Below the pieces are notes generated by a model that searched no databases, was not told where the DNA came from, and saw only the letters and a program-made list of their open reading frames with translations. Position numbers and translations under genes: made by a program. From assembly GCA_002269645.1 (NCBI GenBank), contig NIVC01001153.1, positions 1 through 64,000 on the forward strand: a stretch of DNA of 64,000 bases, read 5' to 3'. How positions within the stretch are numbered: position 1 is the stretch's first letter; each line of letters starts with the position of its first letter. Source of the stretch: Macrostomum lignano. Its lineage: Eukaryota. Shown piece after piece: positions 13,956-40,405 of this stretch.

Positions 13956-15707
13956 ATGTCGAATTTCTTTGTCAACATCGCCGACAAGTTTGAGGCGATG
14001 AGCAATGTTGTAAAGCAGCAGACCACAGGCTCAGGCGCCGGTGGTAGCAGCAGCGCCAGTTCAACTGGCGTCAACAGTCGCTGCAACGACTGTCGCGGCC
14101 AATTCGCCACTCTGTTTCCAAAGCGTCAGCGTTGCGCAATCTGTCGTTATTATTTCTGTCGTACCTGCGTGGGCAATGTACCAGTGAGTGGCAGAGTGCA
14201 GCTGGGCTCCGCTCTGCCACTTCGAGACGCTGTTAGTAATACGGTTGTGCCAGCCTGCTCTCGTTGTCGGGTGTTCTCTAATCCGAATTTCACTTACGAA
14301 CAATTGATGCGGCTACGAGTTAGGGATCTGTTCTGGTTTCTGCAGCGGACTGGCACGCAGAATGACGAGCTGCGAGGCTTGAAAGAGAAGAATCAGCTGG
14401 CCGATTTGGTGATGGACAGGTTCGGCAATGTCGAGTACCGGCGGGCCCGGGCGGATGAGAGGCGGCACCAGCACGAGAGGCTGGCTCAGATGGCGTCGAA
14501 TATGGAGCAACTGGCCGGTGGCGCCCAGAGACAGGTTAGATTGCAGCAGAGATGGTTCAGTAGTTCCCTAATATGGTCATTGGTTAGATTGCAGCAGAGA
14601 TGGTTCAGCAGTTCCCTATTATGGTGATTGGTTAGATTGCAGCAGAGATGGTTCAGCAGTTCCCTAATACGGTTATGAAACAGTATGTATATGGGGTTTC
14701 AATCACGCATGCTTTAATCTGATCTGTTTAAACAATCTTTTTTTGGACAGCAACAACAACAAACTGCTTCTACGAGTACAAGTCAGCGTGAAAATCAACA
14801 TCAACCAGAAGATTCCCATGCTCAACCACCGGAAGCTGCTCAACCACCGGAAGCTGCTCAACCACCGGAAGCTGCTCAACTACCGGAAGCTGCTCAACCA
14901 CCGGAAGCTGCTCAACCACCGGAAGCTGCTCAACTACCGGAAGCTGCTCAACCACCGGAAGCTGCTCAAATACCGGAAGCTGCTCAACTACCGGATGCTG
15001 CTCAACCACTGGAAGCTGCTCAACTACCGGATGCTGCTCAACCACCGGAAGCGATGGAACGGTCGACAGACACCCTGTCGCAGTCGTCCATCCCGAATGT
15101 ACCGCCGCCACCGTATCCGGGTTTACCGCCAGAAGCTGCCGCCGCTGCTGCAGACGAGGATAACAATGCGGCAAATACTGACGATGAGGACATCGAGATG
15201 GCTCAGGACGCGGCTGCGGAAGCGGCTGCAGCGGATCTGCTGGCCGCTATGGAGGCCGCTGAAGTAGCTGCCGCTATTGAAGAAGCGGAAGCGGCCTCCT
15301 CCTCAGCAGCAGCCGCCGCCCCTGCCGCTCCCGCAGCGTCGTCTCACTCGGAGGTGACCAGTCTGGATCAAGTTGCCAACGAATCGGATTTGGATAAGCT
15401 AAGCGTTCGCGAGATTAAACAACTGCTAGTGCGCAACTTTGTTGACTATCGCGGCTGTTTAGAACGGGCTGAACTGCTGGAGCGACTGCGCAGGCTGTAC
15501 AGAGAGCATGCCGTGTCTAAACAGGCTGTCCTGCATGACGAATTGGCCGACTCTGACCTGTGCAAGATCTGCATGGACGCGGCCATAGACTGTGTGCTGC
15601 TGGAGTGCGGCCACATGGTCACCTGTGTGCAGTGCGGCAAACAGTGCTCGGACTGTCCCGTGTGCCGGCAGTACGTTGTAAGGGTTGTGCGAACTTTTAA
15701 GTCTTGA
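13956..15707 (+). CDS. RNF34: RNF34/RFFL (CARP)-like E3 ligase: FYVE-like finger, SAP-like segments, C-terminal IAP-type RING; exons 13956-14534, 14751-15707 (511 aa)
   Basis: CNDC...RQRCAICRYYFCRTC...CSRC; LRVRDLFWFL; LSVREIKQLLVRNFVDYRGCLERAELLERL; CKICMDAAIDCVLLECGHMVTCVQCGKQCSDCPVCRQYVVRVVRTFKS. CAG|GT and ggacag|CAA junctions are in frame. RNF34 vs RFFL orthology is not resolvable here. Confidence 0.88.
14535..14670. repeat. 48-bp repeat starting at the RNF34 5' splice site, 3 copies
   Basis: Unit GTTAGATTGCAGCAGAGATGGTTCAG(C/T)AGTTCCCTAATATGGT(C/G)ATTG. Confidence 0.93.
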
Positions 15708-17577: not shown

Positions 17578-19434
17578 ATGCCGCAGTCAAATCGTTATTA
17601 CGACCTGAACCTGCTGGACAGGCAGGAGGCCATGGTGGCTCGTAGCCAAAATCTCGGCTATTCGCACCTGGCATTCGCTTCGGTGCACACCAACATCAAA
17701 GTTCCACCGCCGCCGCCCTCACCTCTGCCAACAGCGGCTGGATCTTCTGGTTCCGGTAGGCTATGGCGAATGAGTATATCAGAGAGCATATCGAAGGTCC
17801 TAGTGGTGAAGCTTTAGTGCTGTTGAACTTTGTTTTAAAGGGTACGGATATTTTTTATAATGAAGATAAAATTGAAGTTAAGTTCAGTGAGTCAAAGTTC
17901 CTGAGGTGTGAAGTTAGGTGACTCAAACTTCCTGAGGTGTGAAGTTAGGTGACTCAAAGTTCCTGAGATGTGAAGTTCAGTGACTCAAAGTTCCTCAGGT
18001 GTGGAGTTCAGGGACTCAAATTTCCTCAGGTGTGGAGTTCAGGGACTCAAATTTCCTCAGGTGTGAAGTTCAGGGACTCAAAGTTCCTCAGGTGTGGAGT
18101 TCAGGGACTCAAAGTTCCTCAGGTGTGGAGTTCAGGGACTCAAAGTTCCTGAGGTGTAAAGTTTAGTGACTCAAATTTCCTGAGGTGTGAAGTTCAGTGA
18201 CTCAAAGTTTCTGAGGTGTGAAGTTCAGTGACTCAAATTTGCAAGAATGCGCAGTGACAGATATTTAAACTTCAAAGCATATTTTCTCCATCAACCACTC
18301 CGACTCCAGGCTCTGTGTGGTCCCGCACGGGAAGTCGCGTATGCCGTCTCACCCTAGCTTTCGGGCCGGAAGTTCAAGAAACCGAGCTGAAGTCCTATTT
18401 CCGTCAGCACGCCAAAGAACTGGAGGCCTACGATCTGTTAGCCGTGCTGCCTAAGAGCCAATCGGCTCTGCACGCCTGCGCAGAGACTCTGCCTGTGGAT
18501 CTCATCGCTTGCGATCTGGGCTCGCCTAAGTTGGAGACATTCTGGTCAGATTTTCGCGACATTCGAACAGCAGTTAGGCGAGGTATTAAGATTGAGGTTA
18601 GTTGCGACGCCGGATCATCCGGACACTTGAGAGTGTGGAGTTGCTATAGGCAGGCTGACAGGCCGACTTAAGCTACTGACAGATAGATATTTAGGTATCT
18701 AGAGACACAGACACTAACTCAGACAGACAGACAAATAGACAGATAGGTATACAAACAAACACTAAGACAGACATGGAGACATGGACAGGTGGCAGACAGA
18801 CAGAGACATACAGACAGGCAGGCAGACAGACAGACAGACATACAGACAGACAGACAGACACTAAGACAGACAGACAGACAGACAGACAGACAGCCAAGGC
18901 CACCAATCAGAGCCTGTGCCACCCGCCCATCCCCCGCAGGTGTCCCTGCAGCCCATGCTGCACTCGCAGCAGAGCCGCATCCTGGCGGCCACCCTGCTGT
19001 TCGAGCTGCTGACCTCGGCCAGGCTGTCCCCAGACGGGCTGGTGCTCAGCTCGGGCGCTCTCAACCAGTGGGATCTGCGCGACCCGTTCGGTGTCTGCGC
19101 CCTGGCCGCGTCGCTAGGCGTGCCGCCAGACAAGACCAGAGCCTGCCTGTCAGCCAATTGTGAGTCAGCAGTTGAGCACGCGCTAGTCAGACGTAAGACT
19201 GCTCACGGCGCCCTGGCTATTGCTCAGATTGCTAAGCTGCCGGGCGTGAGCAGCGTGCAGCTGGCAGATTCGGATTCTAAGAGATCGTCGGGTAGGAAGC
19301 GACCAGCCGCCGAGGAAGCTCAAGTAGATGACGGCATGACCGACTTGACGGAGCAGCAGGACCGCCTTATCGACCTGCTGTTGCCGGCAAGACCAAAGAA
19401 GAAAAAGAAAAGCGGAGCTGTTGTTCGAATATAG
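17578..19434 (+). CDS. RPP30: RNase P/MRP subunit p30-like, exons 17578-17755, 18310-18596, 18940-19434 (319 aa)
   Basis: YYDLNL...LGYSHLAF; YDLLAVLPKSQSALHAC...VDLI; AVRRGIKIE|VSLQP; LVLSSGALNQWDLRDPFGVCALAASLG...CLSANCESAVEHALVRRKTAHG matches the Rpp30 pattern. Splice sites are in frame. Confidence 0.88.
17876..18240. repeat. 31-bp minisatellite in RPP30 intron 1 (mirror ~35341-35705)
   Basis: Unit ~GAAGTTCAGGGACTCAAAGTTCCTCAGGTGT. Confidence 0.92.
18675..18895. repeat. (CAGA)n microsatellite in RPP30 intron 2 (mirror ~34686-34906)
   Basis: Direct reading of the sequence. Confidence 0.93.
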
Positions 19435-19696: not shown

Positions 19697-20006
19697 TAAC
19701 CCCTCAGATCATTCAGTGCCTGCTGCCCCTCCCCTCAGATCCTTCAGTGCCTGCTGCCCCTCCCCTCAGATCCTTCAGTGGCTGCTGCCCCTCCCCTCAG
19801 ATCCTTCAGTGCCTGCTGCCCCTCCCCTCAGATCCTTCAGTGGCTGCTGCCCCTCCCCTCAGATCCTTCAGTGGCTGCTGCCCCTCCCCTCAGATCTTTC
19901 AGTGGCTGCTGCCCCTCCCTTCAGATTCTTCAGTGCCTGCTGCCCCTCCCCTCAGATCCTTCAGTGCCTGCTGCCCCTCCCCTCAGATCCTTCAGTGGCT
20001 GCTGCC
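19697..20006. repeat. 31-bp minisatellite interrupted by the mini-Polinton; last unit at ~22815-22845 (mirror 33453-33880, ~4 more units)
   Basis: Unit TGCCTGCTGCCCCTCCCCTCAGATCCTTCAG. Confidence 0.93.
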
Positions 20007-22814
20007 AGTAGTAAATAGAAAATTACGTCCATACCCATTTTTTTCAATTGCAAAACACGTAATAAGGTAACCCGTCAGAAATTTTATTCCGCACATACCT
20101 TTATTTTCCTATAAAATCAAGTAGTAAGATACCGAACCAAATGGTAGGGTATACAACAGGAATTCTAACTACACTGCACCGCACCCACAAATAATTCAAA
20201 AGAAGAAAAGATCTAAATTTCGATCAACCAACCAACTTGTCCAAAAACGCACTTTCCGTATATTTCTGCATTACAAGAACAGAGGCAACTAATGTGCTGT
20301 AAAGCGTCGTAGGCAAAAATACACGCGCCGAAATTCATTTCTTCGACGAGGCTCACAACCGTTAAAAAGAAGCGAAGGCTACCACCACGAGTCAGTTTGA
20401 AATACAAACAAAACAACACCCAAATACCACAATGTCCAGACCGAGGATCCTGAATAGCAAATCGGCTGTAGGACCAATTTTGAAAATCCCCACATTCTCG
20501 CCCCAACCACCGTCTAATATTTTCCGGCGGATTTAAACCAAGCGAATCAAAATATTCCCCGACCCTTCGTCCACGGCCCCCCCCCCTAACCCGCCTGCTA
20601 CTCACCCAAACTGCAACCCAATGCCTACCAGGAAGATTCGAAGTGTCTGTATTCGCCACAAAGAAATAGTCTTTACCATCTAAAGGTAATTGTCCAAGAG
20701 TTCTAATCGAGTCCTGAGGATACACACCCAAAAAGACAACACCAAACAATCTCATACATAGAATTGTAATAATTGACCGCAAGAATCTGTCACTGGCACT
20801 CTGCAACATGTTCAGATTCACTTCCTCCATGCTGTGCCCGGCACGACGTCGCGAAGCTCCGTGATCTGCAGCTGCTTGTCAAATAGACCACCGAATATTA
20901 CATTGTAGACAACGCGCTTGTTGCTTGAGCGAAGCGCAACTCCAACTTTACATTTCCTTCCTTATAGAGCTGAGCACCATGCACGTTACGTCTACGCAAA
21001 AAAGCGAGAAAAGATTCAAAGCCACCTACCATGTCTTTTTAGCGGTCTGTCTCGGACAACATACTCCGCCTCCGCAGAACTACCCTCTTCGAAAAGAGTT
21101 TTTACAAGAGCGTCGTATCTCCTTTTGAATGCCTTCAGAAGCCGATTTTTGGTGCTTCCTCAACACCAACCTCTCGAACAGGACCGCTACTTGGCCCATT
21201 TTGCAGTATTCGCCGAGAATTTTCTAGTCTTGTCTTTACACTAGCATTGCATTCACTACGAATATGGACAAATCCGCCCGAAAGAAAGAACTAGCTGAGC
21301 GATATGTGAGAGACGGTAAGCAATTATTGGGCTTTTTGTTTATTAAGAAGCTGATCGGGTAGTAATGGGCTGCGTCTTCTCTCTTTGCAGCGTTCAAGAA
21401 CGGGGTCTTTGCGCGGCCGCCTCCGGGTTATATGTACCCCGAGAATGTCGCGGTTGCGAGGGCGAATATGCCTTGGCAGTGCAAGCCCTAGGTACTGGGT
21501 GGTACCGCTTTTTCTTCCGGGAGATGAAGTCTGGAAAACTGACGACTATGGACTATTGGGACTTGACTGCGGACGCCTGACTGCGCAATGGAACGATACT
21601 GATATGTAGTTGTTCGTATATAATTTGGTAATATTAATGTCTACTTAGTATTGTAATAATCCACTATTCATTAGGGAATTTTAAAGTTATTTAAAAGACG
21701 GTCATATCGCAATTTTGCGTTCGTTTGCCTTAGTTTACCATAAAGAATTTAACATCATGATACTAAAACTGTATCCGATCTGTTCAAATATATAGAATAA
21801 GACAAGTCAAGTCGATTCGACCCTAAGACTGTTTCTCACTACGAAGGTTCAATTTATTATTGTGCATGGCCGTCAGTACCGAGCTCAGAAGGATCTCGTC
21901 ACAGCAACACTTACAATTACCCGGTTTTTTCGGATGTGATTGGTTTGTAGATCAGTGACTGAGAATTGAAAACAGATTATGTCTTTTGGCGTGTTATACT
22001 TTAGTCCGTTAAATTCAAGTATACTTAGTTTTTTGAGCAAGTGATAGTACAACGAACAGGAACGTTGGCGAAGAACTGCAGAAATGAACAGGTTGGACAA
22101 CGAAAAAATGATATTGAAGCATTCAATCAAGACAGTTTAGTGGCTTACGAATGTTAGAAATTCAAAATATGAATGTATACCCGAGCCGAATAACTGTTAA
22201 GATATTTGGTGGCCTACTACTGTCTTAAACTAACTTTTTGTCCCATCTTTGAAGTATGTATATATTTGGCTGGTAAATTTCAAATACGTTTAAAAATAAA
22301 AAATAGGAGTTTGTATCGTTCGTAATTCTCAATGGTCTTTTCTTGAAAATTTAAAAATTGGGGTCTTGAATGACTCCTGGTACGAAAGGCAGTATGGGGA
22401 GAAAGTATAAGGCGCAGCAGGCGGCTTATTTACTGCCTGTAGCCTATTCTGAGCTGGGTTTTGCTTGCAGAGGGATTGTGGCACAATTTCACTTCTGCAA
22501 TTTATTAAGCTCTTTTCTTTTGTTCTTTGTGGGTGCGTGTTTCCCCTATTCTTGTAATGCAGAAATAGCTATGTCGTTTTTCAGCAACTTGGTTGATCGG
22601 TGTTGTTGGGTCTTTTCTTTCTCGTTCTTTGTGGCTGCACTGCAGTTTAGTTGGAATTCCTGTAGAATACCCTACCATTTGGTTCGGTACCTTATTTGAT
22701 TTTTAATACAAAAATAAGGTATGTGCGTAATAAAATTTCTGACGGGTACCTTATTACGTGTTTTGCAATTGAAAAATGGGGTATGGACGTAATTTTCTAT
22801 TACTACGAGCTACT
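20007..22814. mobile_element. Internally deleted (mini) Polinton/Maverick, 2808 bp
   Basis: Starts AGTAGT (20007). ~280-bp imperfect TIRs (20007-~20285 and ~22535-22814). GCTGCC on both flanks (20001-20006, 22815-22820). Carries an adenain-type protease ORF. Confidence 0.88.
20213..20830 (-). CDS. Polinton/adenovirus-type cysteine protease (205 aa)
   Basis: FLGVYPQD...ANTDTSNLPGRHWVAV...EYFDSLG...IQDPRSGHCGIWVLF shows the His, Asp, Gln, Cys catalytic pattern. Confidence 0.85.
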   Translation of the reverse strand: MEEVNLNMLQSASDRFLRSIITILCMRLFGVVFLGVYPQDSIRTLGQLPLDGKDYFFVANTDTSNLPGRHWVAVWVSSRRVRGGGRGRRVGEYFDSLGLNPPENIRRWLGRECGDFQNWSYSRFAIQDPRSGHCGIWVLFCLYFKLTRGGSLRFFLTVVSLVEEMNFGACIFAYDALQHISCLCSCNAEIYGKCVFGQVGWLIEI

Positions 22815-22942
22815 GCTGCCCCTCCCCTCAGACCCTTCAGTGGCCGCTATTCTCCTTACTTAATTAATATTTCTACAGTGATAAAAGCCAAATAAATGTG
22901 AGCATATCTCGCCATCTCACTGCAGCGCTCAGACCAGGCATC

Positions 22943-23956
22943 ATGAACCCATTAACCCAAGTCCGCAATCAGCGCCTGATGACTGAGAAGGAGCTCCAAC
23001 TGGGCACGGCGAACACCCAAAGCTCCTGGCACTCGATGTTCAAAGACTCCGCTTGGATCTACATTGGCGGCTTGGACTATGAACTCACCGAAGGCGACGT
23101 AATCTGCGTGTTCTCCCAATACGGCGAAGTGGTCAACGTCAACCTGGTGCGGGACCAGTCCACTGGCAAGAGCAAAGGCTTCGCTTTCCTGTGCTACGAA
23201 GATCAGCGATCAACCGTGCTGGCATGCGACAACCTCAACGGAGCCCGAGTTGTGGGTCGCACTCTGCGGGTTAATCACGTGGAAAGCTACAAGGTGAAGG
23301 AGCTGATTAAACCGGACGATGATCCGGTGAAGCAGCGGCTTAAGGAGCGCGGCTGCGCGCCTGAAGTTGGACATGACGGCGATTTGAGTCCGCCTCGCCG
23401 TCGGCGCTCGCCGCCCGCCGCTCCTGGAGGCTCAGCCGCTCCTGTGCGAGTGAAGCGCGAAAAAATCGATCCAAATTATCCGGATTACCAACCGTCTGAT
23501 CGTAGCCGTAGCCGTAACGGACATCCGGGTAGCCGCGACGGACATTCGGGTAGCCGCGACGGACATCCGGGTAGCCGCGACGGACATCCGGGTAGCCGCG
23601 ACGGACATCCGGGTAGCCGCGACGGACATCCGGGTAGCCGCGACGGACATCCGGGTAGCAAGGATCGACAAGTCGCTAGCACGAATCGTAGAAAGAATTA
23701 TAGTCATAGCCGTAGCCGTAGCCGCGATGGACATCCGGGTAGCAAGGATCGACAAGTCGCTAGCACGAATCGTAGAAAGAATTATAGTCATAGCCGTAGC
23801 CGAAGCCGTAGCCGTAGCCGCGACGGACATCCGGGCAGCAAGGATCGACAAGTTCCTAATCCAAATCGTCGAAGAAATCGTAGCCGTAGCCGTAGCCCAC
23901 CGTCCAGAAGTGACGCTGCCAGATATCGAAGGTCTACTACAAGTAGTAGAAAATAA
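22943..23956 (+). CDS. RBMX2: RBMX2/Snu17 (RES complex RRM protein) with RS-rich tail, single coding exon (337 aa)
   Basis: MNPLTQV...SWHSMFKDSAWIYIGGLDYELTEGDVICVFSQYGEVVNVNLVRDQSTGKSKGFAFLCYEDQRSTVLA. ATG 22943 is preferred over the ORF-track start at 22898. Confidence 0.93.
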   Translation: MNPLTQVRNQRLMTEKELQLGTANTQSSWHSMFKDSAWIYIGGLDYELTEGDVICVFSQYGEVVNVNLVRDQSTGKSKGFAFLCYEDQRSTVLACDNLNGARVVGRTLRVNHVESYKVKELIKPDDDPVKQRLKERGCAPEVGHDGDLSPPRRRRSPPAAPGGSAAPVRVKREKIDPNYPDYQPSDRSRSRNGHPGSRDGHSGSRDGHPGSRDGHPGSRDGHPGSRDGHPGSRDGHPGSKDRQVASTNRRKNYSHSRSRSRDGHPGSKDRQVASTNRRKNYSHSRSRSRSRSRDGHPGSKDRQVPNPNRRRNRSRSRSPPSRSDAARYRRSTTSSRK

Positions 23957-24798: not shown

Positions 24799-27625
24799 TT
24801 AGTTCCAGTACGGTCTATAATGCTCCGGTAGGCGAGGCACGTGTCTGCGCCACAGGTTTTTGTCCTCCTGCGACAGGCGAGCTACTGGCCGAAGAAAACT
24901 CTCTGTTGCTTTCCACTTTCTTGCCGGCCTTTCCGTTTCCTGCATGTGGTAATGAGGGTTGCCAGGCTACTGATTATCTAGTGAGAATTTCACGAGTATT
25001 CCGTACCTGCATTTGCTCTAATAAAATGACAGCGTGCGCTCTCCAGTCTCAACCCGTTGAAAACGGTACCGTGACAAGAATCGCTAAAAAGTCGTTGCAA
25101 ACAACTTACTTGTGACTCTGGGCGACTCTTGTGACTTTTTAACGACTCAAACGCGTCAAATGCGACGGAGGCGACTTGCGTCGCAAAAGCGTAAATCATG
25201 AAAAAATTGTCCAAGAATCGTTGAGTTGGCGTTATAACTTTTGCTACAGATACGACTCTAATTCATCAAGCGACGCAAATGCGCTTTAAACACAACTCAG
25301 TGACTACAGCGACTTTAGCACGCCTCAAATACGACTCTTTACGGCACCAGAGTCGATTTCAGAGTCACAGACAACAAAACGCTTCGTGACTTCTTTGGTG
25401 ACGAATTTTTGGTGACTTTAACCATTTCATCTCATCGTTTTAGAGTCGTCTAGAGTCATTTCTTTTCATTTCTTTCATTTCATTCATCACTTTCATTCAT
25501 CACTTTCATTTCATTTCATTCATTTCTTTCCTATTTTGTGTTACCTGCAACGACTGTAAGGCGACGCAAGTGACTTTGGTACGCTTCTTAGCTTAGATAC
25601 CGTTTTCATCGGGCAATTCATTTATCCCTGAGCTGAGATCAACAAGAAGCTTCTCCACTCTCGTCAATTTACTCCCCATCTGCTTTCTTCTCTAACTCCT
25701 TCTTTCCCCATCCATCCCAATCTTCTGTCCTGTCGCACCCTCCTCCAATCATATCCACAGCAACAGTAGCAACTCAAACTTCTAATTTCTCCAGGCAGTT
25801 CCATACCATTGTAATAGACCGACGAAACAGCACGGCCTCGACGGTCAGCAGCGGGAAAAACAGTCTGCCGTAGCTTACAACCTTAGCAACCTTGAAGCCG
25901 CAGCTGTCGCACACTAGATCAACGCCAATTACTTCCACGCCGGGCACCCTTTTGGCTTCGCCGCCAGCTTGGCCGCGAAGTCGGCCGCCGCTGGCGAACA
26001 TCTCGACATCGACAACAACCCGGTGGATGTCGCCGATTAAGCGAAGTCGAGTCGAATGTGACAGCTGAGTGAAGCACTTGCTGCACAGAATGTCGTGATC
26101 GCTGTCAAGAACTTGACCTCGGTTGTTGTTGGCCTGATTGACGTCTCCGCCTCCAGCCTCTTGGTTATCCTCATCTGTGTTCATCATTCTTACTTGATAT
26201 TCGAGCATCTGCAAGCAGGAGGCATCAAAGCTGGGAGTCATACCAAATCGACCCAATTCGGGATTATTTACATGTATATGTTAATCTCTCACCTGAATCT
26301 CCAGTTCCCTTGCTGACATGGCAGCAACGGTCCTCACCGCCTGGGACATCATGGCATCTCGCTCCTGATTGATGCGTTCTTTATCTTTCAGCCATTCCTG
26401 CGTTTCCGCTACAATCACGTGATAGGCGCTGTTTCTGGCCCGGCCGCGGCCCTTGGTCTGCACCATGGAGACCTCGTTGGTCACGTGACAGTAGCGCACC
26501 ACCAGGTTGCAGTCGGGGATGTCCAGGCCCTCCTCAGTGACGCTCGTACAAGCGATCACTTTGTAGAGACCGCGTCGGAAGTCTTCAAGTCTGGCCCGCT
26601 GCTCAGCCGCGTTGGTGCCTCCCGTCGACTCGCCAGATGTTGCACCTGTCACGTAGGTAGCCTTAAGACGCAGTTCCGCACACTCGTCTACAAAATCGGC
26701 CAGAACGCGAGCGTAAAATTTCTGTTTTACAAAAACGATAGCGCGACTGTTTGGCTGGCCGGTGAATTGCTCGCGAAGAATTTCGACAAGCTTGTCCAGC
26801 GGTGGGCTGGACTGGAACATACGAAGGAGGAGTTCATTTTACAGGTTAATACGAAGGTCTGGAGTCTTGCGAGTAAAGGGCATAAAAAATCAGCCTCTAT
26901 GCTGTCTACCCCCATTACTTCCAAATGACTGCACTGTCAAAGAAACCCCTACTCATCCTGCGTCCATTTTTAATATACTCGTACTATCAGAACTAAAAAA
27001 TCCCTAGACCCAGTAACCATGTTCCTCACCGAAGCCTCCTTTGTGCCGCAGAACCTGATCAATTGTTGCATTACGTCATCCAGATGCCGTCTCAGTCTTT
27101 CCTCAGCCTCGCTTGCCGGTGGCTTTGCCATCTCATCCTCGGTTCGCAGCTCCGTCTCCAAATAGCGCAACGCGTCCACCGCGCGAAAGCACTGCGCAAT
27201 CATTTGAGCCTCGTTGCAGCAGCCAAGATACCTGCTGCAGGCTAATATATTCTTGCAAACGGTTTGGTCAGTGATGTTGTGCATGTTGTACTTCACGTTG
27301 GTGCAGTAGTTCAAGTACGCGGGAGTGCCTCGGGGAGGCACAGACGACACTGGCAGGCCTTCACTCTGCCACTGTTCAAGTGAATCGCAATAGTCGCGCA
27401 GAAGGCCCTCGCCCATGTTCATTAATCTGTTTAGCAGGTTGATAAACACGTCGACTTTTGTTGGATCGCCAGGTGCATAGTGTATCTGGCAATCGGGATT
27501 TGATGTCACTTCATTGAGCGACTTGATGCAGCGCTGCACAGTGACTGGATATGGGCAGTCGAGATTGGCGCACAGCTTGATTAGATGCTCCACGGCGGCC
27601 TCGAGTCGCGATGCTTTGCCGGTGC
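24799..27625 (-). CDS. RIG-I-like receptor helicase, 5'-incomplete; exons 27625-27030, 26811-26293, 26208-25807, 24939-24799 (~551 aa visible)
   Basis: Post-motif III LIKLCANLD; Hel2i; PPLDKLVEIL; motif IV IVFVKQK; motif V CTSVTEEGLDIPDCNLV; motif VI MVQTKGRGRA; pincer helix; CTD with CSKC...CDSC; final exon with the ARKWK motif. GT-AG junctions are in frame. Confidence 0.85.
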
Positions 27626-28320
27626 CTTGTTTGTACGAATGTTTTTAAGATGTTAGCGCATTAGACTGTGCGGTTGTACTTTTACTGGGTGTATTTAATG
27701 GCCTCTAATTAGGCTTTGAATTATCTTGAATAGCTACGGTTTTCTAGTGCTCTCCGTTGTAGTTCTCCAATATTCTATACATGTAGTGTCTGTTTGGAGT
27801 TCTCTAGCATCCATATTAAGGTTCGTGGAAACAACCCACTAGTGGTTCTAGCGAATGTTATTTGAAGACTCAAGCGACTGTAATGCAACTGTTGAGTCAC
27901 GAGCGCATCACGTGCGAATCGTAAGAGTCGTCCAAAAGCCGTTGCGTTAGAAATTTTCTACTAACTCAAGTAGACTAAATAGATCGAGTTATTACACGTA
28001 TGCTAGTAAACTGTGCAAGTCGATTCTAGTTCATAAAGTGATATGTTGAATGCTTTTTTCCTGAGCGTATTTAGCCACTCGGCAGATTTTGAAGCGAAAA
28101 AAAAAACTCGGCGGGCAATTCGCTCGCGGGCAAAATGCACTGCGGGCAAATCTCGACGGGAAAATCGTCTGCGGGCAGTTCTCATGGACCTGACTCTGAG
28201 ATGCTTCTTGGCCTAGGTACCGTTTTTTATCAATAGTGTTCTCTTAATGTCCCTTGCATTGTTTGGGTAATCTAGTATCTCTCAAGCGTCCCTTGTTACA
28301 AACTGCACTGTCTAAGTCTT

Positions 28321-28703
28321 NNNNNNNNNNNNNNNNNNNNNNNNNNNNNNNNNNNNNNNNNNNNNNNNNNNNNNNNNNNNNNNNNNNNNNNNNNNNNNNN
28401 NNNNNNNNNNNNNNNNNNNNNNNNNNNNNNNNNNNNNNNNNNNNNNNNNNNNNNNNNNNNNNNNNNNNNNNNNNNNNNNNNNNNNNNNNNNNNNNNNNNN
28501 NNNNNNNNNNNNNNNNNNNNNNNNNNNNNNNNNNNNNNNNNNNNNNNNNNNNNNNNNNNNNNNNNNNNNNNNNNNNNNNNNNNNNNNNNNNNNNNNNNNN
28601 NNNNNNNNNNNNNNNNNNNNNNNNNNNNNNNNNNNNNNNNNNNNNNNNNNNNNNNNNNNNNNNNNNNNNNNNNNNNNNNNNNNNNNNNNNNNNNNNNNNN
28701 NNN
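28321..28703. other. Assembly gap (383 N)
   Basis: Run of n from 28321 to 28703. Confidence 1.
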
Positions 28704-29475
28704 NTAACTTGAATTTACTCAGACCAGCGACAAAGATTACATCTGTGCGAGTAGTTAACACAGAATGACTTAAGTATAACATGTAGTGTTGAAACGAGAT
28801 TCTGTGAAAAATTTTATGTTTCTAAAAAACGACAGGCACATCACTGATTTGTGGTAAAAAGTTTTCCAAGTGTTAAATTAGGTCATTCATGACTGCAAAA
28901 AATCTAAAAAAATCAAGTAGCTTGTATTAGTGAGCTAAGATTAAATCTGTTTACATTATCTGTAGAAAATTAACATTCTTTTTAACCCTTTTAAATCGCA
29001 TATTCAGTAAATTGCTTTGCTAAGCAACTCTCTTTAAATTGTTACGAACGGTGTTATTTTAGATTTTAAAAAAATAAATGAGCAACAACTCCGTTAATAA
29101 CTACATTTGCAATACACATAAGAAGAGCACTATATATCAGTACTGAACATGTGTTTTTATTAAAGTATATTTTGATATTTACCAAAGTATTGTAAAATGC
29201 ATAGTACACTGCCGTTATCTGAACATAACCTAATAATAACAGCAAGAACTGGTTGGATCAAAATTACCGGTAGGCATTAAATTTCAACGAAACATGCCAA
29301 TAATTATTAGCAGTAAGTTATAGGTAGAATCTGCCTCTCGGCTTCATCTAATTTGGGTAGAATCAGTCTCCCAAGCTATTAAAAATAGAACTTTCAAATT
29401 GAAAAATCATAATCTGTACAATAGTCAATGAGGCTTGGTCAAAACCGTTGTTATGACGACACAAAACCACTGAAA

Positions 29476-30510
29476 TTATTTTCTACTACTTGTAGTAGAC
29501 CTTCGATATCTGGCAGCGTCACTTCTGGACGGTGGGCTACGGCTACGGCTACGATTTCTTCGACGATTTGGATTAGGAACTTGTCGATCCTTGCTGCCCG
29601 GATGTCCGTCGCGGCTACGGCTACGGCTTCGGCTACGGCTATGACTATAATTCTTTCTACGATTCGTGCTAGCGACTTGTCGATCCTTGCTACCCGGATG
29701 TCCATCGCGGCTACGGCTACGGCTATGACTATAATTCTTTCTACGATTCGTGCTAGCGACTTGTCGATCCTTGCTACCCGGATGTCCGTCGCGGCTACCC
29801 GGATGTCCGTCGCGGCTACCCGGATGTCCGTCGCGGCTACCCGGATGTCCGTCGCGGCTACCCGGATGTCCGTCGCGGCTACCCGAATGTCCGTCGCGGC
29901 TACCCGAATGTCCGTCGCGGCTACCCGGATGTCCGTTACGGCTACGGCTACGATCAGACGGTTGGTAATCCGGATAATTTGGATCGATTTTTTCGCGCTT
30001 CACTCGCACAGGAGCGGCTGAGCCTCCAGGAGCGGCGGGCGGCGAGCGCCGACGGCGAGGCGGACTCAAATCGCCGTCATGTCCAACTTCAGGCGCGCAG
30101 CCGCGCTCCTTAAGCCGCTGCTTCACCGGATCATCGTCCGGTTTAATCAGCTCCTTCACCTTGTAGCTTTCCACGTGATTAACCCGCAGAGTGCGACCCA
30201 CAACTCGGGCTCCGTTGAGGTTGTCGCATGCCAGCACGGTTGATCGCTGATCTTCGTAGCACAGGAAAGCGAAGCCTTTGCTCTTGCCAGTGGACTGGTC
30301 CCGCACCAGGTTGACGTTGACCACTTCGCCGTATTGGGAGAACACGCAGATTACGTCGCCTTCGGTGAGTTCATAGTCCAAGCCGCCAATGTAGATCCAA
30401 GCGGAGTCTTTGAACATCGAGTGCCAGGAGCTTTGGGTGTTCGCCGTGCCCAGTTGGAGCTCCTTCTCAGTCATCAGGCGCTGATTGCGGACTTGGGTTA
30501 ATGGGTTCAT
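29476..30510 (-). CDS. RBMX2: RBMX2 mirror copy (344 aa)
   Basis: Identical RRM, with one extra SRDGHSG unit. Confidence 0.93.
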   Translation of the reverse strand: MNPLTQVRNQRLMTEKELQLGTANTQSSWHSMFKDSAWIYIGGLDYELTEGDVICVFSQYGEVVNVNLVRDQSTGKSKGFAFLCYEDQRSTVLACDNLNGARVVGRTLRVNHVESYKVKELIKPDDDPVKQRLKERGCAPEVGHDGDLSPPRRRRSPPAAPGGSAAPVRVKREKIDPNYPDYQPSDRSRSRNGHPGSRDGHSGSRDGHSGSRDGHPGSRDGHPGSRDGHPGSRDGHPGSRDGHPGSKDRQVASTNRRKNYSHSRSRSRDGHPGSKDRQVASTNRRKNYSHSRSRSRSRSRDGHPGSKDRQVPNPNRRRNRSRSRSPPSRSDAARYRRSTTSSRK

Positions 30511-30638: not shown

Positions 30639-33452
30639 AGTAGCTCGTAGTAATAGAAAATTACGTCCATACCCCATTTTTCAATTGCAAAACACGTAAT
30701 AAGGTACCCGTCAGAAATTTTATTACGCACATACCTTATTTTTGTATTAAAAATCAAATAAGGTACCGAACCAAATGGTAGGGTATTCTACAGGAATTCC
30801 AACTAAACTGCAGTGCAGCCACAAAGAACGAGAAAGAAAAGACCCCGACACCGATCAACCAAGTTGCTGAAAAACGACATAGCTATTTCTGCATTACAAG
30901 AATAGGGGAAACACGCACCCACAAAGAACAAAAGAAAAGACCTTAATACGAGTAAATTGCAGAAGTCAAATTGTGCCACAATCCCTCTGCAAGCAAAACC
31001 CAGCTCAGAATAGGCTACAGGCAGTAAATAAGCCGCCTGCTGCGCCTTATACTTTCTCCCCATACTGCCTTTCGTACCAGGAGTCATTCAAGACCCCAAT
31101 TTTTTAATTTTCAAGAAAAGACCATTGAGAATTACGAACGATACAAACTCCTATTTTTTTATTTTTAAACGTATTTGAAATTTACCAGCCAAATATATAC
31201 ATACTTCAAAGATGGGACAAAAAGTTGCTAGTTTAAGACAGTAGTAGGCCCCCAAATATCTTAACAGTTATTCGGCTCGGGTATACATTCATATTTTGAA
31301 TTTCTAACATTCGTAAGCCACTAAACTGTCTTGATTGAATGCTTCAATATCATTTTTTCGTTGTCCAACCTGTTCATTTCTGCAGTTCTTCGCCACCGTT
31401 CCTGTTCGTTGTACTATCACTTGCTCAAAAAACTAAGTATACTTGAATTTAACGGACTAAAGTATAACACGCCAAAAGACATAATCAGTTTTCAATTCTC
31501 AGTCACTGATCGACAAACCAATCACATCCGAAAAAACCGGGTAATTGTAAGTGTTGCTGTGACGAGATCCTTCTGAGCTCGGTACTGACGGCCATGCACA
31601 ATAATAAATTGAACCTTCGTAGTGAGAAACAGTCTTAGGGTCGAATCGACTTGACTTGTCTTATTCTATATATTTGAACAGATCGGATACAGTTTTAGTA
31701 TCATGACGTTAAATTCTTTATGGTAAACTAAGGCAAACGAACGCAAAATCGCGATATGACAGTCTTTTAAATAACTTTAAAATTCCCTAATGAATAGTGG
31801 ATTATTACAATACTAAGTAGACATTAATATTACCAAATTATATACGAACAACTACATATCAGTATCGTTCCATTGCGCAGTCAGGCGTCCGCAGTCAAGT
31901 CCCAATAGTCCATAGTCGTCAGTTTTCCAGACTTCATCTCCCGGAAGAAAAAGCGGTACCACCCAGTACCTAGGGCTTGCACTGCCAAGGCATATTCGCC
32001 CTCGCAAACCGTGACATTCTCGGGGTACATATAACCCGGAGGCGGCCGCGCAAAGACCTCGTTCTTGAACGCTGCAAAGAGAGAAGACGCAGCCCATTAG
32101 TACCCGATCAGCTTCTTAATAAACAAAAAGCCCAATAATTGCTTACCGTCTCTCACATATCGCTCAGCTAGTTCTTTCTTTCGGGCGGATTTGTCCATAT
32201 TCGTAGTGAATGCAATGCTAGTGTAAAGACAAGACTAGAAAATTCTCGGCGAATACTGCAAAATGGGCCAAGTAGCGGTCCTGTTCGAGAGGTTGGTGTT
32301 GAGGAAGCACCAAAAATCGGCTTCTGAAGGCATTCAAAAGGAGATACGACGCTCTTGTAAAAACTCTTTTCGAAGAGGGTAGTTCTGCGGAGGCGGAGTA
32401 TGTTGTCCGAGACAGACCGCTAAAAAGACATGGTAGGTGGCTTTGAATCTTTTCTCGCTTTTTTGCGTAGACGTAACGTGCATGGTGCTCAGCTCTATAA
32501 GGAAGGAAATGTAAAGTTGGAGTTGCGCTTCGCTCAAGCAACAAGCGCGTTGTCTACAATGTAATATTCGGTGGTCTATTTGACAAGCAGCTGCAGATCA
32601 CGGAGCTTCGCGACGTCGTGCCGGGCACAGCATGGAGGAAGTGAATCTGAACATGTTGCAGAGTGCCAGTGACAGATTCTTGCGGTCAATTATTACAATT
32701 CTATGTATGAGATTGTTTGGTGTTGTCTTTTTGGGTGTGTATCCTCAGGACTCGATTAGAACTCTTGGACAATTACCTTTAGATGGTAAAGACTATTTCT
32801 TTGTGGCGAATACAGACACTTCGAATCTTCCTGGTAGGCATTGGGTTGCAGTTTGGGTGAGTAGCAGGCGGGTTAGGGGGGGGGGCCGTGGACGAAGGGT
32901 CGGGGAATATTTTGATTCGCTTGGTTTAAATCCGCCGGAAAATATTAGACGGTGGTTGGGGCGAGAATGTGGGGATTTTCAAAATTGGTCCTACAGCCGA
33001 TTTGCTATTCAGGATCCTCGGTCTGGACATTGTGGTATTTGGGTGTTGTTTTGTTTGTATTTCAAACTGACTCGTGGTGGTAGCCTTCGCTTCTTTTTAA
33101 CGGTTGTGAGCCTCGTCGAAGAAATGAATTTCGGCGCGTGTTTTTGCCTACGACGCTTTACAGCACATTAGTTGCCTCTGTTCTTGTAATGCAGAAATAT
33201 ACGGAAAGTGCGTTTTTGGACAAGTTGGTTGGTTGATCGAAATTTAGATCTTTTCTTCTTTTGAATTATTTGTGGGTGCGGTGCAGTGTAGTTAGAATTC
33301 CTGTTGTATACCCTACCATTTGGTTCGGTATCTTACTACTTGATTTTATAGGAAAATAAAGGTATGTGCGGAATAAAATTTCTGACGGGTTACCTTATTA
33401 CGTGTTTTGCAATTGAAAAAAATGGGTATGGACGTAATTTTATATTACTACT
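30639..33452. mobile_element. Mini-Polinton mirror copy, 2814 bp
   Basis: Flanked by GGCAGC at 30633-30638 and 33453-33458. Ends ACTACT. Confidence 0.88.
32632..33171 (+). CDS. Protease mirror copy (179 aa; 2-bp deletion shifts only the C-terminal tail)
   Basis: Identical to the left copy through MNFGAC. gcgtgtattttt (left) vs gcgtgttttt (right). Confidence 0.8.
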   Translation: MEEVNLNMLQSASDRFLRSIITILCMRLFGVVFLGVYPQDSIRTLGQLPLDGKDYFFVANTDTSNLPGRHWVAVWVSSRRVRGGGRGRRVGEYFDSLGLNPPENIRRWLGRECGDFQNWSYSRFAIQDPRSGHCGIWVLFCLYFKLTRGGSLRFFLTVVSLVEEMNFGACFCLRRFTAH

Positions 33453-37873: not shown

Positions 37874-40405
37874 TCAAGACTTAAAAGTTCGCACAACCCT
37901 TACAACGTACTGCCGGCACACGGGACAGTCCGAGCACTGTTTGCCACACTGCACACAGGTGACCATGTGGCCGCACTCCAGCAGCACACAGTCTATGGCC
38001 GCGTCCATGCAGATCTTGCACAGGTCAGAGTCGGCCAATTCGTCATGCAGGACAGCCTGTTTAGACACGGCATGCTCTCTGTACAGCCTGCGCAGTCGTT
38101 CCAGCAGTTCAGCACGTTCTAAACAGCCGCGATAGTCAACAAAGTTGCGCACTAGCAGTTGTTTAATCTCGCGAACGCTTAGCTTATCCAAATCCGATTC
38201 GTTGGCAACTTGATCCAGACTGGTCACCTCCGAGTGAGACGACGCTGCGGGGGCGGCAGGGGCGGCGGCTGCTGCTGAGGAGGAGGCCGCTTCCGCTTCT
38301 TCAATAGCGGCAGCCACTTCAGCGGCCTCCATAGCGGCCAGCAGATCCGCTGCAGCCGCTTCCGCAGCCGCGTCCTGAGCCATCTCGATGTCCTCATCGT
38401 CAGTATTTGCCGCATTGTTATCCTCGTCTGCAGCAGCGGCGGCGGCTTCTGGCGGTAAACCAGGATACGGTGGCGGCGGTACATTCGGGATGGACGACTG
38501 CGACAGGGTGTCTGTCGACCGTTCCATCGCTTCCGGTAGTTGAGCAGCTTCCGGTAGTTGAGCAGCTTCCGGTAGTTGAGCAGCTTCCGGTAGTTGAGCA
38601 GCTTCCGGTGGTTGAGCAGCTTCCGGTGGTTGAGCAGCTTCCGGTAGTTGAGCAGCTTCCGGTGGTTGAGTAGCTTCCGGTGGTTGAGCAGCTTCCGGTA
38701 GTTGAGCAGCTTCCGGTGGTTGAGCATGGGAATCTTCTGGTTGATGTTGATTTTCACGCTGACTTGTACTCGTAGAAGCAGTTTGTTGTCGTTGCTGTCC
38801 AAAAATATATTGTTTAAACAGATCAGATTAAAGCATGCGTGATTGAAACACCATATACATACTGTTTCATAACCGTATTAGGGAACTGCTGAACCATCTC
38901 TGCTGCAATCTAACCAATCACCATATTAGGGAACTGCTGAACCATCTCTGCTGCAATCTAACCAATGACCATATTAGGGAACTGCTGAACCATCTCTGCT
39001 GCAATCTAACCAATGACCATATTAGGGAACTGCTGAACCATCTCTGCTGCAATCTAACCAATCACCATATTAGGGAACTGCTGAACCATCTCTGCTGCAA
39101 GCTAACCAATGACCATATTAGGGAACTGCTGAACCATCTCTGCTGCAATCTAACCAATCACCATATTAGGGAACTGCTGAACCATCTCTGCTGCAATCTA
39201 ACCAATCACCATATTAGGGAACTGCTGAACCATCTCTGCTGCAATCTAACCAATGACCATATTAGGGAGCTGCTGAACCATCTCTGCTGCAATCTAACCA
39301 ATGACCATATTAGGGAACTGCTGAACCATCTCTGCTGCAATCTAACCAATCACCATATTAGGGAACTGCTGAACCATCTCTGCTGCAATCTAACCAATCA
39401 CCATATTAGGGAGCTGCTGAACCATCTCTGCTGCAATCTAACCAATCACCATATTAGGGAACTGCTGAACCATCTCTGCTGCAATCTAACCAATGACCAT
39501 ATTAGGGAGCTGCTGAACCATCTCTGCTGCAATCTAACCAATGACCATATTAGGGAACTGCTGAACCATCTCTGCTGCAATCTAACCAATGACCATATTA
39601 GGGAGCTGCTGAACCATCTCTGCTGCAATCTAACCAATGACCATATTAGGGAACTACTGAACCATCTCTGCTGCAATCTAACCAATCACCATATTAGGGA
39701 ACTACTGAACCATCTCTGCTGCAATCTAACCAATGACCATATTAGGGAACTACTGAACCATCTCTGCTGCAATCTAACCAATGACCATATTAGGGAACTA
39801 CTGAACCATCTCTGCTGCAATCTAACCTGTCTCTGGGCGCCACCGGCCAGTTGCTCCATATTCGACGCCATCTGAGCCAGCCTCTCGTGCTGGTGCCGCC
39901 TCTCATCCGCCCGGGCCCGCCGGTACTCGACATTGCCGAACCTGTCCATCACCAAATCGGCCAGCTGATTCTTCTCTTTCAAGCCTCGCAGCTCGTCATT
40001 CTGCGTGCCAGTCCGCTGCAGAAACCAGAACAGATCCCTAACTCGTAGCTCCATCAATTGTTCGTAAGTGAAATTCGGATTAGAGAACACCTGACAACGA
40101 GAGCAGGCTGGCACAACCGTATTACTAACAGCGTCTCGAAGTGGCAGAGCGGAGCCCAGCTGCACTCTGCCACTCACTGGTACATTGGCCACGCAGGTAC
40201 GACAGAAATAATAACGACAGATTGCGCAACGCTGACGCTTTGGAAACAGAGTGGCGAATTGGCCGCGACAGTCGTTGCAGCGACTGTTGACGCCAGTTGA
40301 ACTGGCGCTGCTGCTACCACCGGCGCCTGAGCCTGTGGTCTGCTGCTTTACAACATTGCTCATCGCCTCAAACTTGTCGGCGATGTTGACAAAGAAATTC
40401 GACAT
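37874..40405 (-). CDS. RNF34: RNF34/RFFL-like mirror copy, exons 40405-39827, 38794-37874 (499 aa)
   Basis: Same motifs. Exon 2 is 36 nt shorter (two fewer 18-bp units). Confidence 0.88.
38879..39826. repeat. Mirror 48-bp repeat, 20 copies
   Basis: Intron is 1032 nt vs 216 nt, a difference of 816 = 17 x 48. Confidence 0.95.

What the first reader, a model, noticed from the sequence alone, without database searches (positions are those of the whole stretch)
20007..22814. 2.8-kb protease-only mini-Polinton/Maverick with intact ends and TSD
Seen: AGTAGT terminus, ~280-bp TIRs (very similar for the first ~90 bp, then decaying), 6-bp TSD GCTGCC, and one recognisable gene, an adenain-type protease with His/Asp/Gln/Cys intact in both arms. 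No polymerase, integrase, ATPase or capsid ORF is visible. Established: autonomous Polintons are ~15-40 kb, with such termini, ~6-bp TSDs and this protease. Inference: a non-autonomous, satellite-like derivative that keeps only the virion maturation protease. It could be a mobile family parasitising a helper Polinton, a defective-interfering element, or a protease being domesticated. An unusual RVRGGGRGRR loop between the catalytic His and Asp resembles an xGG|x cleavage site.
Basis: partly seen in the sequence, partly recalled or inferred. Interest (0 to 1): 0.8.

Follow-up and report, generated by a model that had tools for sequence, protein, structure and literature searches.

The report
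Shrunken Polinton keeping an intact protease
This is a small leftover of a virus-like jumping element in an animal genome: it kept both ends, a broken scrap of its capsid gene and an intact-looking protease gene, and is most likely an ordinary defective copy, although the survival of the protease is not fully explained.

Summary
A real Polinton/Maverick derivative at 20007-22814: 6-bp TSD (confirmed by the phase of the host 31-bp minisatellite), ~283-bp imperfect TIRs, and an adenain/Ulp1-clan protease with His70/Asp95/Gln127/Cys134 and normal conservation. It is not 'protease-only'. The last ~50 codons of a double-jelly-roll major capsid gene, frameshifted, abut the protease start in the known MCP-PRO order. 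So it is an internally deleted Polinton, not a purpose-built protease cassette. No polymerase, integrase, ATPase or penton remnant was established; 1.5 kb stays unassigned. The second copy is part of a ~56-kb inverted duplication (same flanks), not a second insertion. The right terminus is imperfect. The Gly/Arg loop is shared by the closest relatives and lies on a G10 run, so it is a lineage trait rather than a special cleavage site. TIR substitutions fall 17/11/1 from inside to outside, which suggests a young insertion of an already asymmetric element, i.e. probable movement in trans. Whether the protease was kept by selection is open: no independent copies, dN/dS or expression data were available.

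The parts
20001..20006 (.). Left target-site duplication GCTGCC, inside the last unit of a host 31-bp minisatellite
20007..20289 (+). Left terminal inverted repeat, starts AGTAGT; two AATAAA signals on the minus strand (20105, 20088) downstream of the protease stop
20213..20830 (-). Polinton PRO (adenain/vUlp1-type cysteine protease), 205 aa in this copy (179 aa in the duplicated copy, 32632-33171 +); His70, Asp95, Gln127, Cys134
20546..20623 (-). His70-Asp95 interval with the long Gly/Arg loop, partly coded by a G10 run; a similarly long loop is in P0001 and P0004
20818..21038 (-). Broken 3' end of the major capsid protein gene (profile columns 363-410 firmly at 20987-20842, single homologues extend to ~21038), one frameshift near 20908; its stop overlaps the protease start by 13 nt
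   Evidence: MCP identity of the reference:
21039..22538 (.). Unassigned interior: longest ATG-started ORF in 21040-22530 is 71 aa; GC falls from ~50% to 30-38% near 21500; no significant match to MCP, pPolB, integrase, ATPase or penton references, Pfam, PHROGs or Rfam
22539..22814 (-). Right terminal inverted repeat; terminus imperfect (AGTAG plus 7 extra bases relative to the left end)
22815..22820 (.). Right target-site duplication GCTGCC
30639..33452 (-). Second copy of the whole element (98.9% identical), in the other half of the large inverted duplication; same insertion event

Best explanation
An internally deleted, non-autonomous Polinton. A parent Polinton whose morphogenesis module ended ...MCP-PRO next to one TIR lost its interior (polymerase, integrase, ATPase, penton and most of MCP) and kept both ends. 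The shortened unit was then copied and integrated in trans by the polymerase and integrase of a helper Polinton, which recognise the outer ~95 bp; the staggered cut gave the 6-bp TSD in the minisatellite between RPP30 and RBMX2. The protease survives mainly because it is the gene next to the TIR (a passenger), and the insertion is young. Shown: ends, TSD, protease family, MCP remnant and order, TIR gradient. Inferred: deletion history, helper, trans-mobilisation, passenger status.
For: MCP tail scores 47.6 bits vs best 26.7 of 60 shuffles. It is the top site on each strand of the 64-kb window, once per copy (next best 25.7). 117 of 120 capsid homologues have their best hit there, and 0 of 30 shuffles reach the top score. 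MCP directly precedes PRO in the reference Polinton L001; in vertebrate Mavericks the second module is listed as integrase, minor capsid, PW, major capsid, protease (PMC8097293 passages). TIR substitutions are 1, 11 and 17 in the outer, middle and inner thirds (P=1e-4 against uniform), so most asymmetry predates the insertion or the outer part was kept for cis function. Perfect TSD in phase with the host repeat. The element differs between the duplicated halves more than its flanks (15 substitutions in 2808 bp vs 6 in 5651; P=4e-4), a weak hint of other copies in the genome (gene conversion or mixed reads).
Against: No second insertion site was seen, and the rest of the host genome could not be searched. 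The right terminus is damaged and the outer 95 bp hold 6 gaps, which an efficiently mobile element should avoid. If the inner-TIR divergence accumulated during a long non-autonomous history, an unselected protease should have broken: P(no disruption) is 3e-6 to 0.05 with indels, 0.3-0.4 with substitutions only. The between-arm excess is clustered in 21362-22604 and could be a haplotype patch, since the arms range from about 84 to 100% identity.
Confidence: 0.45

Rival explanations
1. Single-locus relic: a full Polinton with natively imperfect or chimeric ends integrated here, and the interior was deleted in place. Nothing has moved since, and the protease has not yet been hit.
For: One insertion only; damaged right terminus; 96% of vertebrate Maverick loci are degraded and imperfect TIRs occur (PMC8097293 passages); TIR-only and partial Polinton remnants occur in C. 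elegans (10.1101/2024.01.15.575659 passages); one of the two copies already has an indel in the protease tail.
Against: The MCP scrap is frameshifted and 1.5 kb holds no long ORF, while the outer TIR has one substitution: decay and a young insertion are hard to fit into one in-place history. The element diverges more than its flanks.
Confidence: 0.3
2. Satellite family selected to keep the protease: the element is packaged or replicated by a helper Polinton and gains from supplying or interfering with virion maturation.
For: PRO keeps 12 of 12 columns conserved at 90% and 24 of 29 at 70%, like a typical homologue, with no clear rate acceleration against P0001 (p 0.05-1.0 over four outgroups); the neighbouring MCP is broken; 0 of 15 between-copy substitutions fall in PRO (P=0.04); polyadenylation-like signals follow the stop.
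Against: The zero-substitution tract (20321-21361) also covers the broken MCP scrap and unassigned DNA, so it is not specific to PRO; this locus was picked because PRO is intact; a protease works in trans, so a satellite gains little from its own copy (inference); no family shown.
Confidence: 0.13
3. Host domestication: the protease is expressed and kept for a host role (clan CE de-SUMOylase/deubiquitinase-like activity or anti-Polinton restriction).
For: Intact frame and fold (pLDDT 85); clan CE relatives include deubiquitinases; present in both halves of the duplication.
Against: TIRs and TSD are still present; the two copies have different tails; no near-identical protein was found in the 5.8-billion set (1 hit at 49% among 95 candidates); no expression evidence.
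Confidence: 0.09
4. The parent was a Polinton-like virus or another preplasmiviricot rather than a Polinton with pPolB and rve integrase.
For: Neither defining gene (pPolB, integrase) is present; the protease lineage has no relative of known context (P0001, P0004, P0014 are unnamed).
Against: (AGT)2 end and 6-bp TSD match Polintons; the capsid scrap matches MCPs of a pPolB+INT element (L001); best viral structure hit is an adintovirus adenain.
Confidence: 0.03

Closest known systems
Polinton/Maverick (Polintoviricetes), animal elements with the MCP-PRO module; reference L001 = contig JANOGQ010000345.1
   Same: AGT-repeat end, 6-bp TSD, TIR within the 46-1447 bp range of vertebrate Mavericks (PMC8097293), PRO directly after MCP
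   Different: 2.8 kb vs 12.7-24.6 kb; no pPolB, integrase, ATPase or penton; MCP reduced to a broken 3' end; TIRs only 80% identical
Non-autonomous Polintons such as zebrafish Polinton-1N1_DR (name seen in PMC9341505; its non-autonomous nature is recalled, the original paper was not held) and Polinton remnants in C. elegans (10.1101/2024.01.15.575659)
   Same: Ends kept, replication and integration genes lost
   Different: Carries an intact protease; multi-copy status not shown here
Adenain (peptidase C5), ASFV pS273R, adintovirus adenain, mavirus protease (clan CE)
   Same: His-Asp-Cys triad with oxyanion Gln, same fold
   Different: Misses the Pfam Peptidase_C5 model; 9 residues longer between His and Asp than the median homologue; substrate unknown (0 of 120 related MCPs have GG or GxG in their last 30 residues, unlike mavirus MCP, PMC6048507)

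Membership tests
Polinton/Maverick (autonomous) | Terminal inverted repeats | tested here: met
   ~283 bp, 236 of 294 columns identical
Polinton/Maverick (autonomous) | (AG)n or (AGT)n end motif at both ends | tested here: inconclusive
   Left AGTAGT; right keeps AGTAG then departs
Polinton/Maverick (autonomous) | 6-bp target-site duplication | tested here: met
   GCTGCC, in phase with the host minisatellite
Polinton/Maverick (autonomous) | Protein-primed DNA polymerase gene | tested here: not met
   No ORF of that size. A weak single-sequence hit at 22085-21930 was matched by 8 of 30 shuffles, and the N-terminal profile scored 17.5 vs shuffle mean 18.4
Polinton/Maverick (autonomous) | rve integrase gene | tested here: not met
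   No ORF, no Pfam hit in 65 frames; L001 and L002 integrases score at null level (17.4 vs null max 35.4; 22.6 vs null max 22.5)
Polinton/Maverick (autonomous) | Intact major capsid, penton and packaging ATPase genes | tested here: not met
   Only a frameshifted MCP 3' end; ATPase and putative penton of L001 at null level (single references, low sensitivity)
Polinton/Maverick (autonomous) | Adenovirus-like cysteine protease | tested here: met
Non-autonomous Polinton family | Polinton ends without pPolB and integrase | tested here: met
Non-autonomous Polinton family | Several same-structure copies at different sites, and a helper with matching ends | not testable with these tools
   Only the 64-kb window was available; its second copy shares the flanks
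Adenain / viral Ulp1 clan CE protease | His-Asp/Glu-Cys triad and oxyanion Gln in order | tested here: met
   His 139 of 139, Asp 134 of 139, Gln 137 of 139, Cys 137 of 139 rows, window included
Adenain / viral Ulp1 clan CE protease | Clan CE fold | tested here: met
   Model pLDDT 85.1; Foldseek pS273R E 3.5e-6, adenain 1nln E 4e-6, adintovirus adenain E 2.3e-8
Adenain / viral Ulp1 clan CE protease | Pfam Peptidase_C5 gathering score | tested here: not met
   No C5 hit; Peptidase_C48 E 0.05-0.08, below cut-off. The profile of homologues does hit adenain chains at E 4e-12
Adenain / viral Ulp1 clan CE protease | Proteolysis after GG|X or GX|G | not testable with these tools
   Needs an enzyme assay

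The most novel reading that the evidence does not exclude
A family of 2.8-kb satellite Polintons that shed replication, integration and capsid genes but keeps a functional maturation protease under selection, riding on or interfering with a helper Polinton (or newly put to host use). It would be a defective-interfering-like satellite among animal Polintons, and indirect evidence that these elements mature virions in the host.
Probability: 0.2. Interest if true: 0.7.

Novelty: new member of a known kind. Interest (0 to 1): 0.3.

Why it matters
As an ordinary deleted Polinton it adds a divergent protease lineage (nearest relative about 50% identical) and a clean case in which a host minisatellite proves the target-site duplication. 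If other copies show the protease under selection while the capsid scrap drifts, it would reveal satellite or interfering elements of animal Polintons, or a protease being co-opted, and give a handle on whether endogenous Polintons form and mature virions. My paper searches listed no description of a protease-retaining mini-Polinton; the library lacks most subscription papers and Repbase.

Tried and rejected
pPolB remnant at 22085-21930: E 0.001 with one sequence and 32.0 vs null max 23.0 of 8 shuffles, but rejected because 8 of 30 shuffles reach the best score of 120 polymerases and the profile gives 17.5. MCP continuing upstream of ~21040, suggested by eye: not supported by a diagonal band test (34 and 37 of 100 shuffles as good), anchored extension (48-135 of 150), upstream-only local alignment (6-15 of 40) or hhalign of three single frames; the capsid references are one family around L001, so a very divergent remnant is not excluded. 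Second copy as an independent insertion: rejected (same flanks). dN/dS between the two copies: impossible, no substitutions in the protease. Loop as unique self-cleavage site: not supported. Weak matches of residues 40-69 to clostridial toxin A repeats (E 0.002-0.03) are chance-level. No Rfam match, no special TIR folding (z 0.25), no phage match, no Atlas hit for frame 21888-22136. Host species not established: an exact look-up of the RBMX2 frame found nothing; a resemblance to flatworm (Macrostomum-type) genomes is recalled only, and one paper search on it gave nothing relevant. No complex prediction was run. Viral and metagenome contig collections stayed unchecked, as did the genomic context of P0001.

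Full report
Observation. The element spans 20007-22814 between two GCTGCC copies. It sits in the last unit of a 31-bp host minisatellite (19700-20006, 9.9 copies), and the right flank resumes the repeat in phase only if six bases were duplicated, so the TSD is real and not a chance product of the repeat. The TIRs are about 283 bp: 236 of 294 columns identical, 29 mismatches, 15 gaps, with no similarity beyond 20295. Substitutions number 1, 11 and 17 in the outer, middle and inner thirds (P=1e-4), gaps 6, 4 and 5. The left end is AGTAGT; the right end keeps AGTAG and then has 7 extra bases. An (AGT)2 end, a 6-bp TSD and TIRs of 46-1447 bp are described for vertebrate Mavericks (PMC8097293, passages read); 5-8-bp TSDs and 13-25-kb size in PMC10748475 (passages).

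The second copy. A 98.9% identical copy lies at 30639-33452 on the other strand. It has the same flanks and TSD and belongs to a ~56-kb inverted duplication centred on an N run at 28321-28704, whose halves are about 84-100% identical block by block. It is one insertion seen twice (probably haplotypes or a segmental duplicate; inference). The copies differ at 15 substitutions and 7 indels, against 6 substitutions in 5651 bp of flank (P=4e-4); none falls in 20321-21361. A 2-bp indel at 20319-20320 gives different protease tails: 45 residues after the catalytic Cys in copy 2, whose stop lies at the inner TIR edge, and 71 in copy 1; the homologue median is 47.

The protease. The 221-codon frame is beyond chance (0 of 500 shuffles). 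Pfam gives no Peptidase_C5 hit and only a sub-threshold C48 hit, but phmmer finds ASFV pS273R (E 4e-5), and 632 representatives at E<=0.001. In an alignment of the window protein with 138 of the 150 listed hits (12 mostly short or partial ones left out) His70, Asp95, Gln127 and Cys134 are held by 139, 134, 137 and 137 of 139 rows. The profile hits pS273R (E 1e-16) and adenain (E 4e-12). The model (pLDDT 85.1) matches pS273R and adenain in the PDB and an adintovirus adenain in BFVD (E 2e-8); the Atlas returns C5/C48 clusters at 0.95. The protein keeps 12 of 12, 24 of 29 and 33 of 45 columns conserved at 90, 70 and 50%, like a typical homologue, with no clear rate excess over P0001. In a tree of 47 rows (44 of the top 45 hits, two reference proteases and the window) it groups with P0001, P0004 and P0014 (support 99/85, 99/83, 100/82; bootstrap not fully settled). 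P0001 (49-52% identical) is the only close relative found. His-Asp spacing is 25 here, 24 in P0001, 22 in P0004, median 16; 8 of 134 rows have GG and 52 have GG or GxG in that interval, and the window's glycines lie on a G10 run. Mavirus protease cuts GG|X and GY|G (PMC6048507, passages), so the loop fits that loose rule, but it is best read as a lineage trait.

Not protease-only. A genome scan with the protease alignment returned three loci. L001 is a Polinton filed in a bacterial MAG, with polymerase-type, A32 ATPase, rve integrase and C5 protease genes, the protease directly after a 419-aa ORF. That ORF folds as a double-jelly-roll capsid (pLDDT 93.3; Z 29.6, rmsd 3.5, 363 aligned to a PBCV-1 capsid chain). 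A profile of the best 120 of its 204 homologues matches the window at 20987-20842 on the protease strand, columns 363-410 of 414, with one frameshift near 20908: 47.6 bits against a best of 26.7 in 60 shuffles. It is the top site in the window, once per copy; 117 of 120 capsids have their best hit at about 21038-20839 and 0 of 30 shuffles reach the top score; hhalign gives E 2e-4 and 7e-5 for the two frames. The capsid tail's stop overlaps the protease start by 13 nt, as tight as the junction in L001. Major capsid followed by protease closes the second module of vertebrate Mavericks. Upstream of about 21040 nothing could be assigned: three tests for more capsid were negative, a polymerase-like hint failed its control, integrase, ATPase and penton references scored at null level, and the longest ATG-started ORF is 71 aa. 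These references come from one Polinton family, so highly divergent remnants are not excluded.

Mechanism. Shown: Polinton ends, integrase-type TSD, tail of the MCP-PRO module, loss of all enzymes for movement. From established knowledge (PMC4028283, PMC11161782, PMC6431247, passages), Polintons replicate by a protein-primed polymerase, integrate by an rve integrase and use PRO for virion maturation. Inferred: a deletion removed the interior, leaving what lay next to the ends. The near-perfect outer TIR and TSD beside a diverged inner TIR and a broken capsid scrap suggest that the unit was already degenerate when it last integrated, which needs a helper in trans (0.45). An in-place deletion of a parent with imperfect or chimeric ends explains most facts too (0.30). 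The intact protease is the one point not fully explained: if the TIR divergence measures elapsed neutral time, the chance of no break is 3e-6 to 0.05 with indels and 0.3-0.4 with substitutions only. But the gradient shows that the TIRs are not a clean clock, one copy has an indel in the tail, and the locus was picked for its intact gene. Selection for the element (0.13) or the host (0.09) stays possible.

Known versus new. Degraded Mavericks make up 96% of vertebrate loci, Polinton remnants are described in C. elegans (10.1101/2024.01.15.575659, passages), and a zebrafish Polinton-1N1 family is named in PMC9341505 (one passage; its non-autonomous nature is recalled, and the original paper was not held). 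Searches (listings and abstract starts) showed no paper on a protease-retaining mini-Polinton. No supplements were read; element tables in them could hold such cases. Verdict: new member of a known kind, interest 0.3; the satellite or co-option reading has probability about 0.2 and would deserve 0.7.

Noticed in passing
window 1-56700: A ~56-kb inverted duplication centred on a 384-N gap (28321-28704), with block identities from about 84% to 100%; probably two haplotypes or duplicates joined head to head in the assembly.
   Followed up: partly
window 21362-22604 vs copy 2: 14 of the element's 15 between-copy substitutions lie in this half, while 20321-21361 has none and the flanks have about 0.1%; could be gene conversion with, or reads from, other copies elsewhere.
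   Followed up: partly
window 18258-19434 and 22943-23956: The element lies between an RNase P p30 gene and an RRM (RBMX2-like) gene, 128 bp upstream of the latter's ATG; a pyrimidine tract plus CAG near 22870-22879 looks like a splice acceptor, so the insertion may sit in a 5' intron or outron (inference).
   Followed up: no
window 25774-27644 (-): A RIG-I-like helicase gene (Helicase_C, RIG-I_C, RIG-I_C-RD) about 3 kb from the element, in the part not mirrored in the other half.
   Followed up: no
L001 136-11215 (contig JANOGQ010000345.1) and L002: Polinton-type elements filed in bacterial MAGs (Lysobacterales, Oxalobacteraceae), most likely mis-binned eukaryotic DNA. L001 carries a TBP-fold ORF (PF00352, E 2e-10) right after its protease.
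   Followed up: partly
window 23508-23659 / 29773-29945 and 14534-14673 / 38872-39827: Repeat-number differences between the duplicated halves: a coding 21-bp repeat in the RBMX2-like gene (7.2 vs 8.2 copies) and a 48-bp repeat in the RNF34-like gene (2.9 vs 19.9 copies).
   Followed up: no
window ~21500: GC drops from about 50% to 30-38% within the element; a candidate deletion junction.
   Followed up: no
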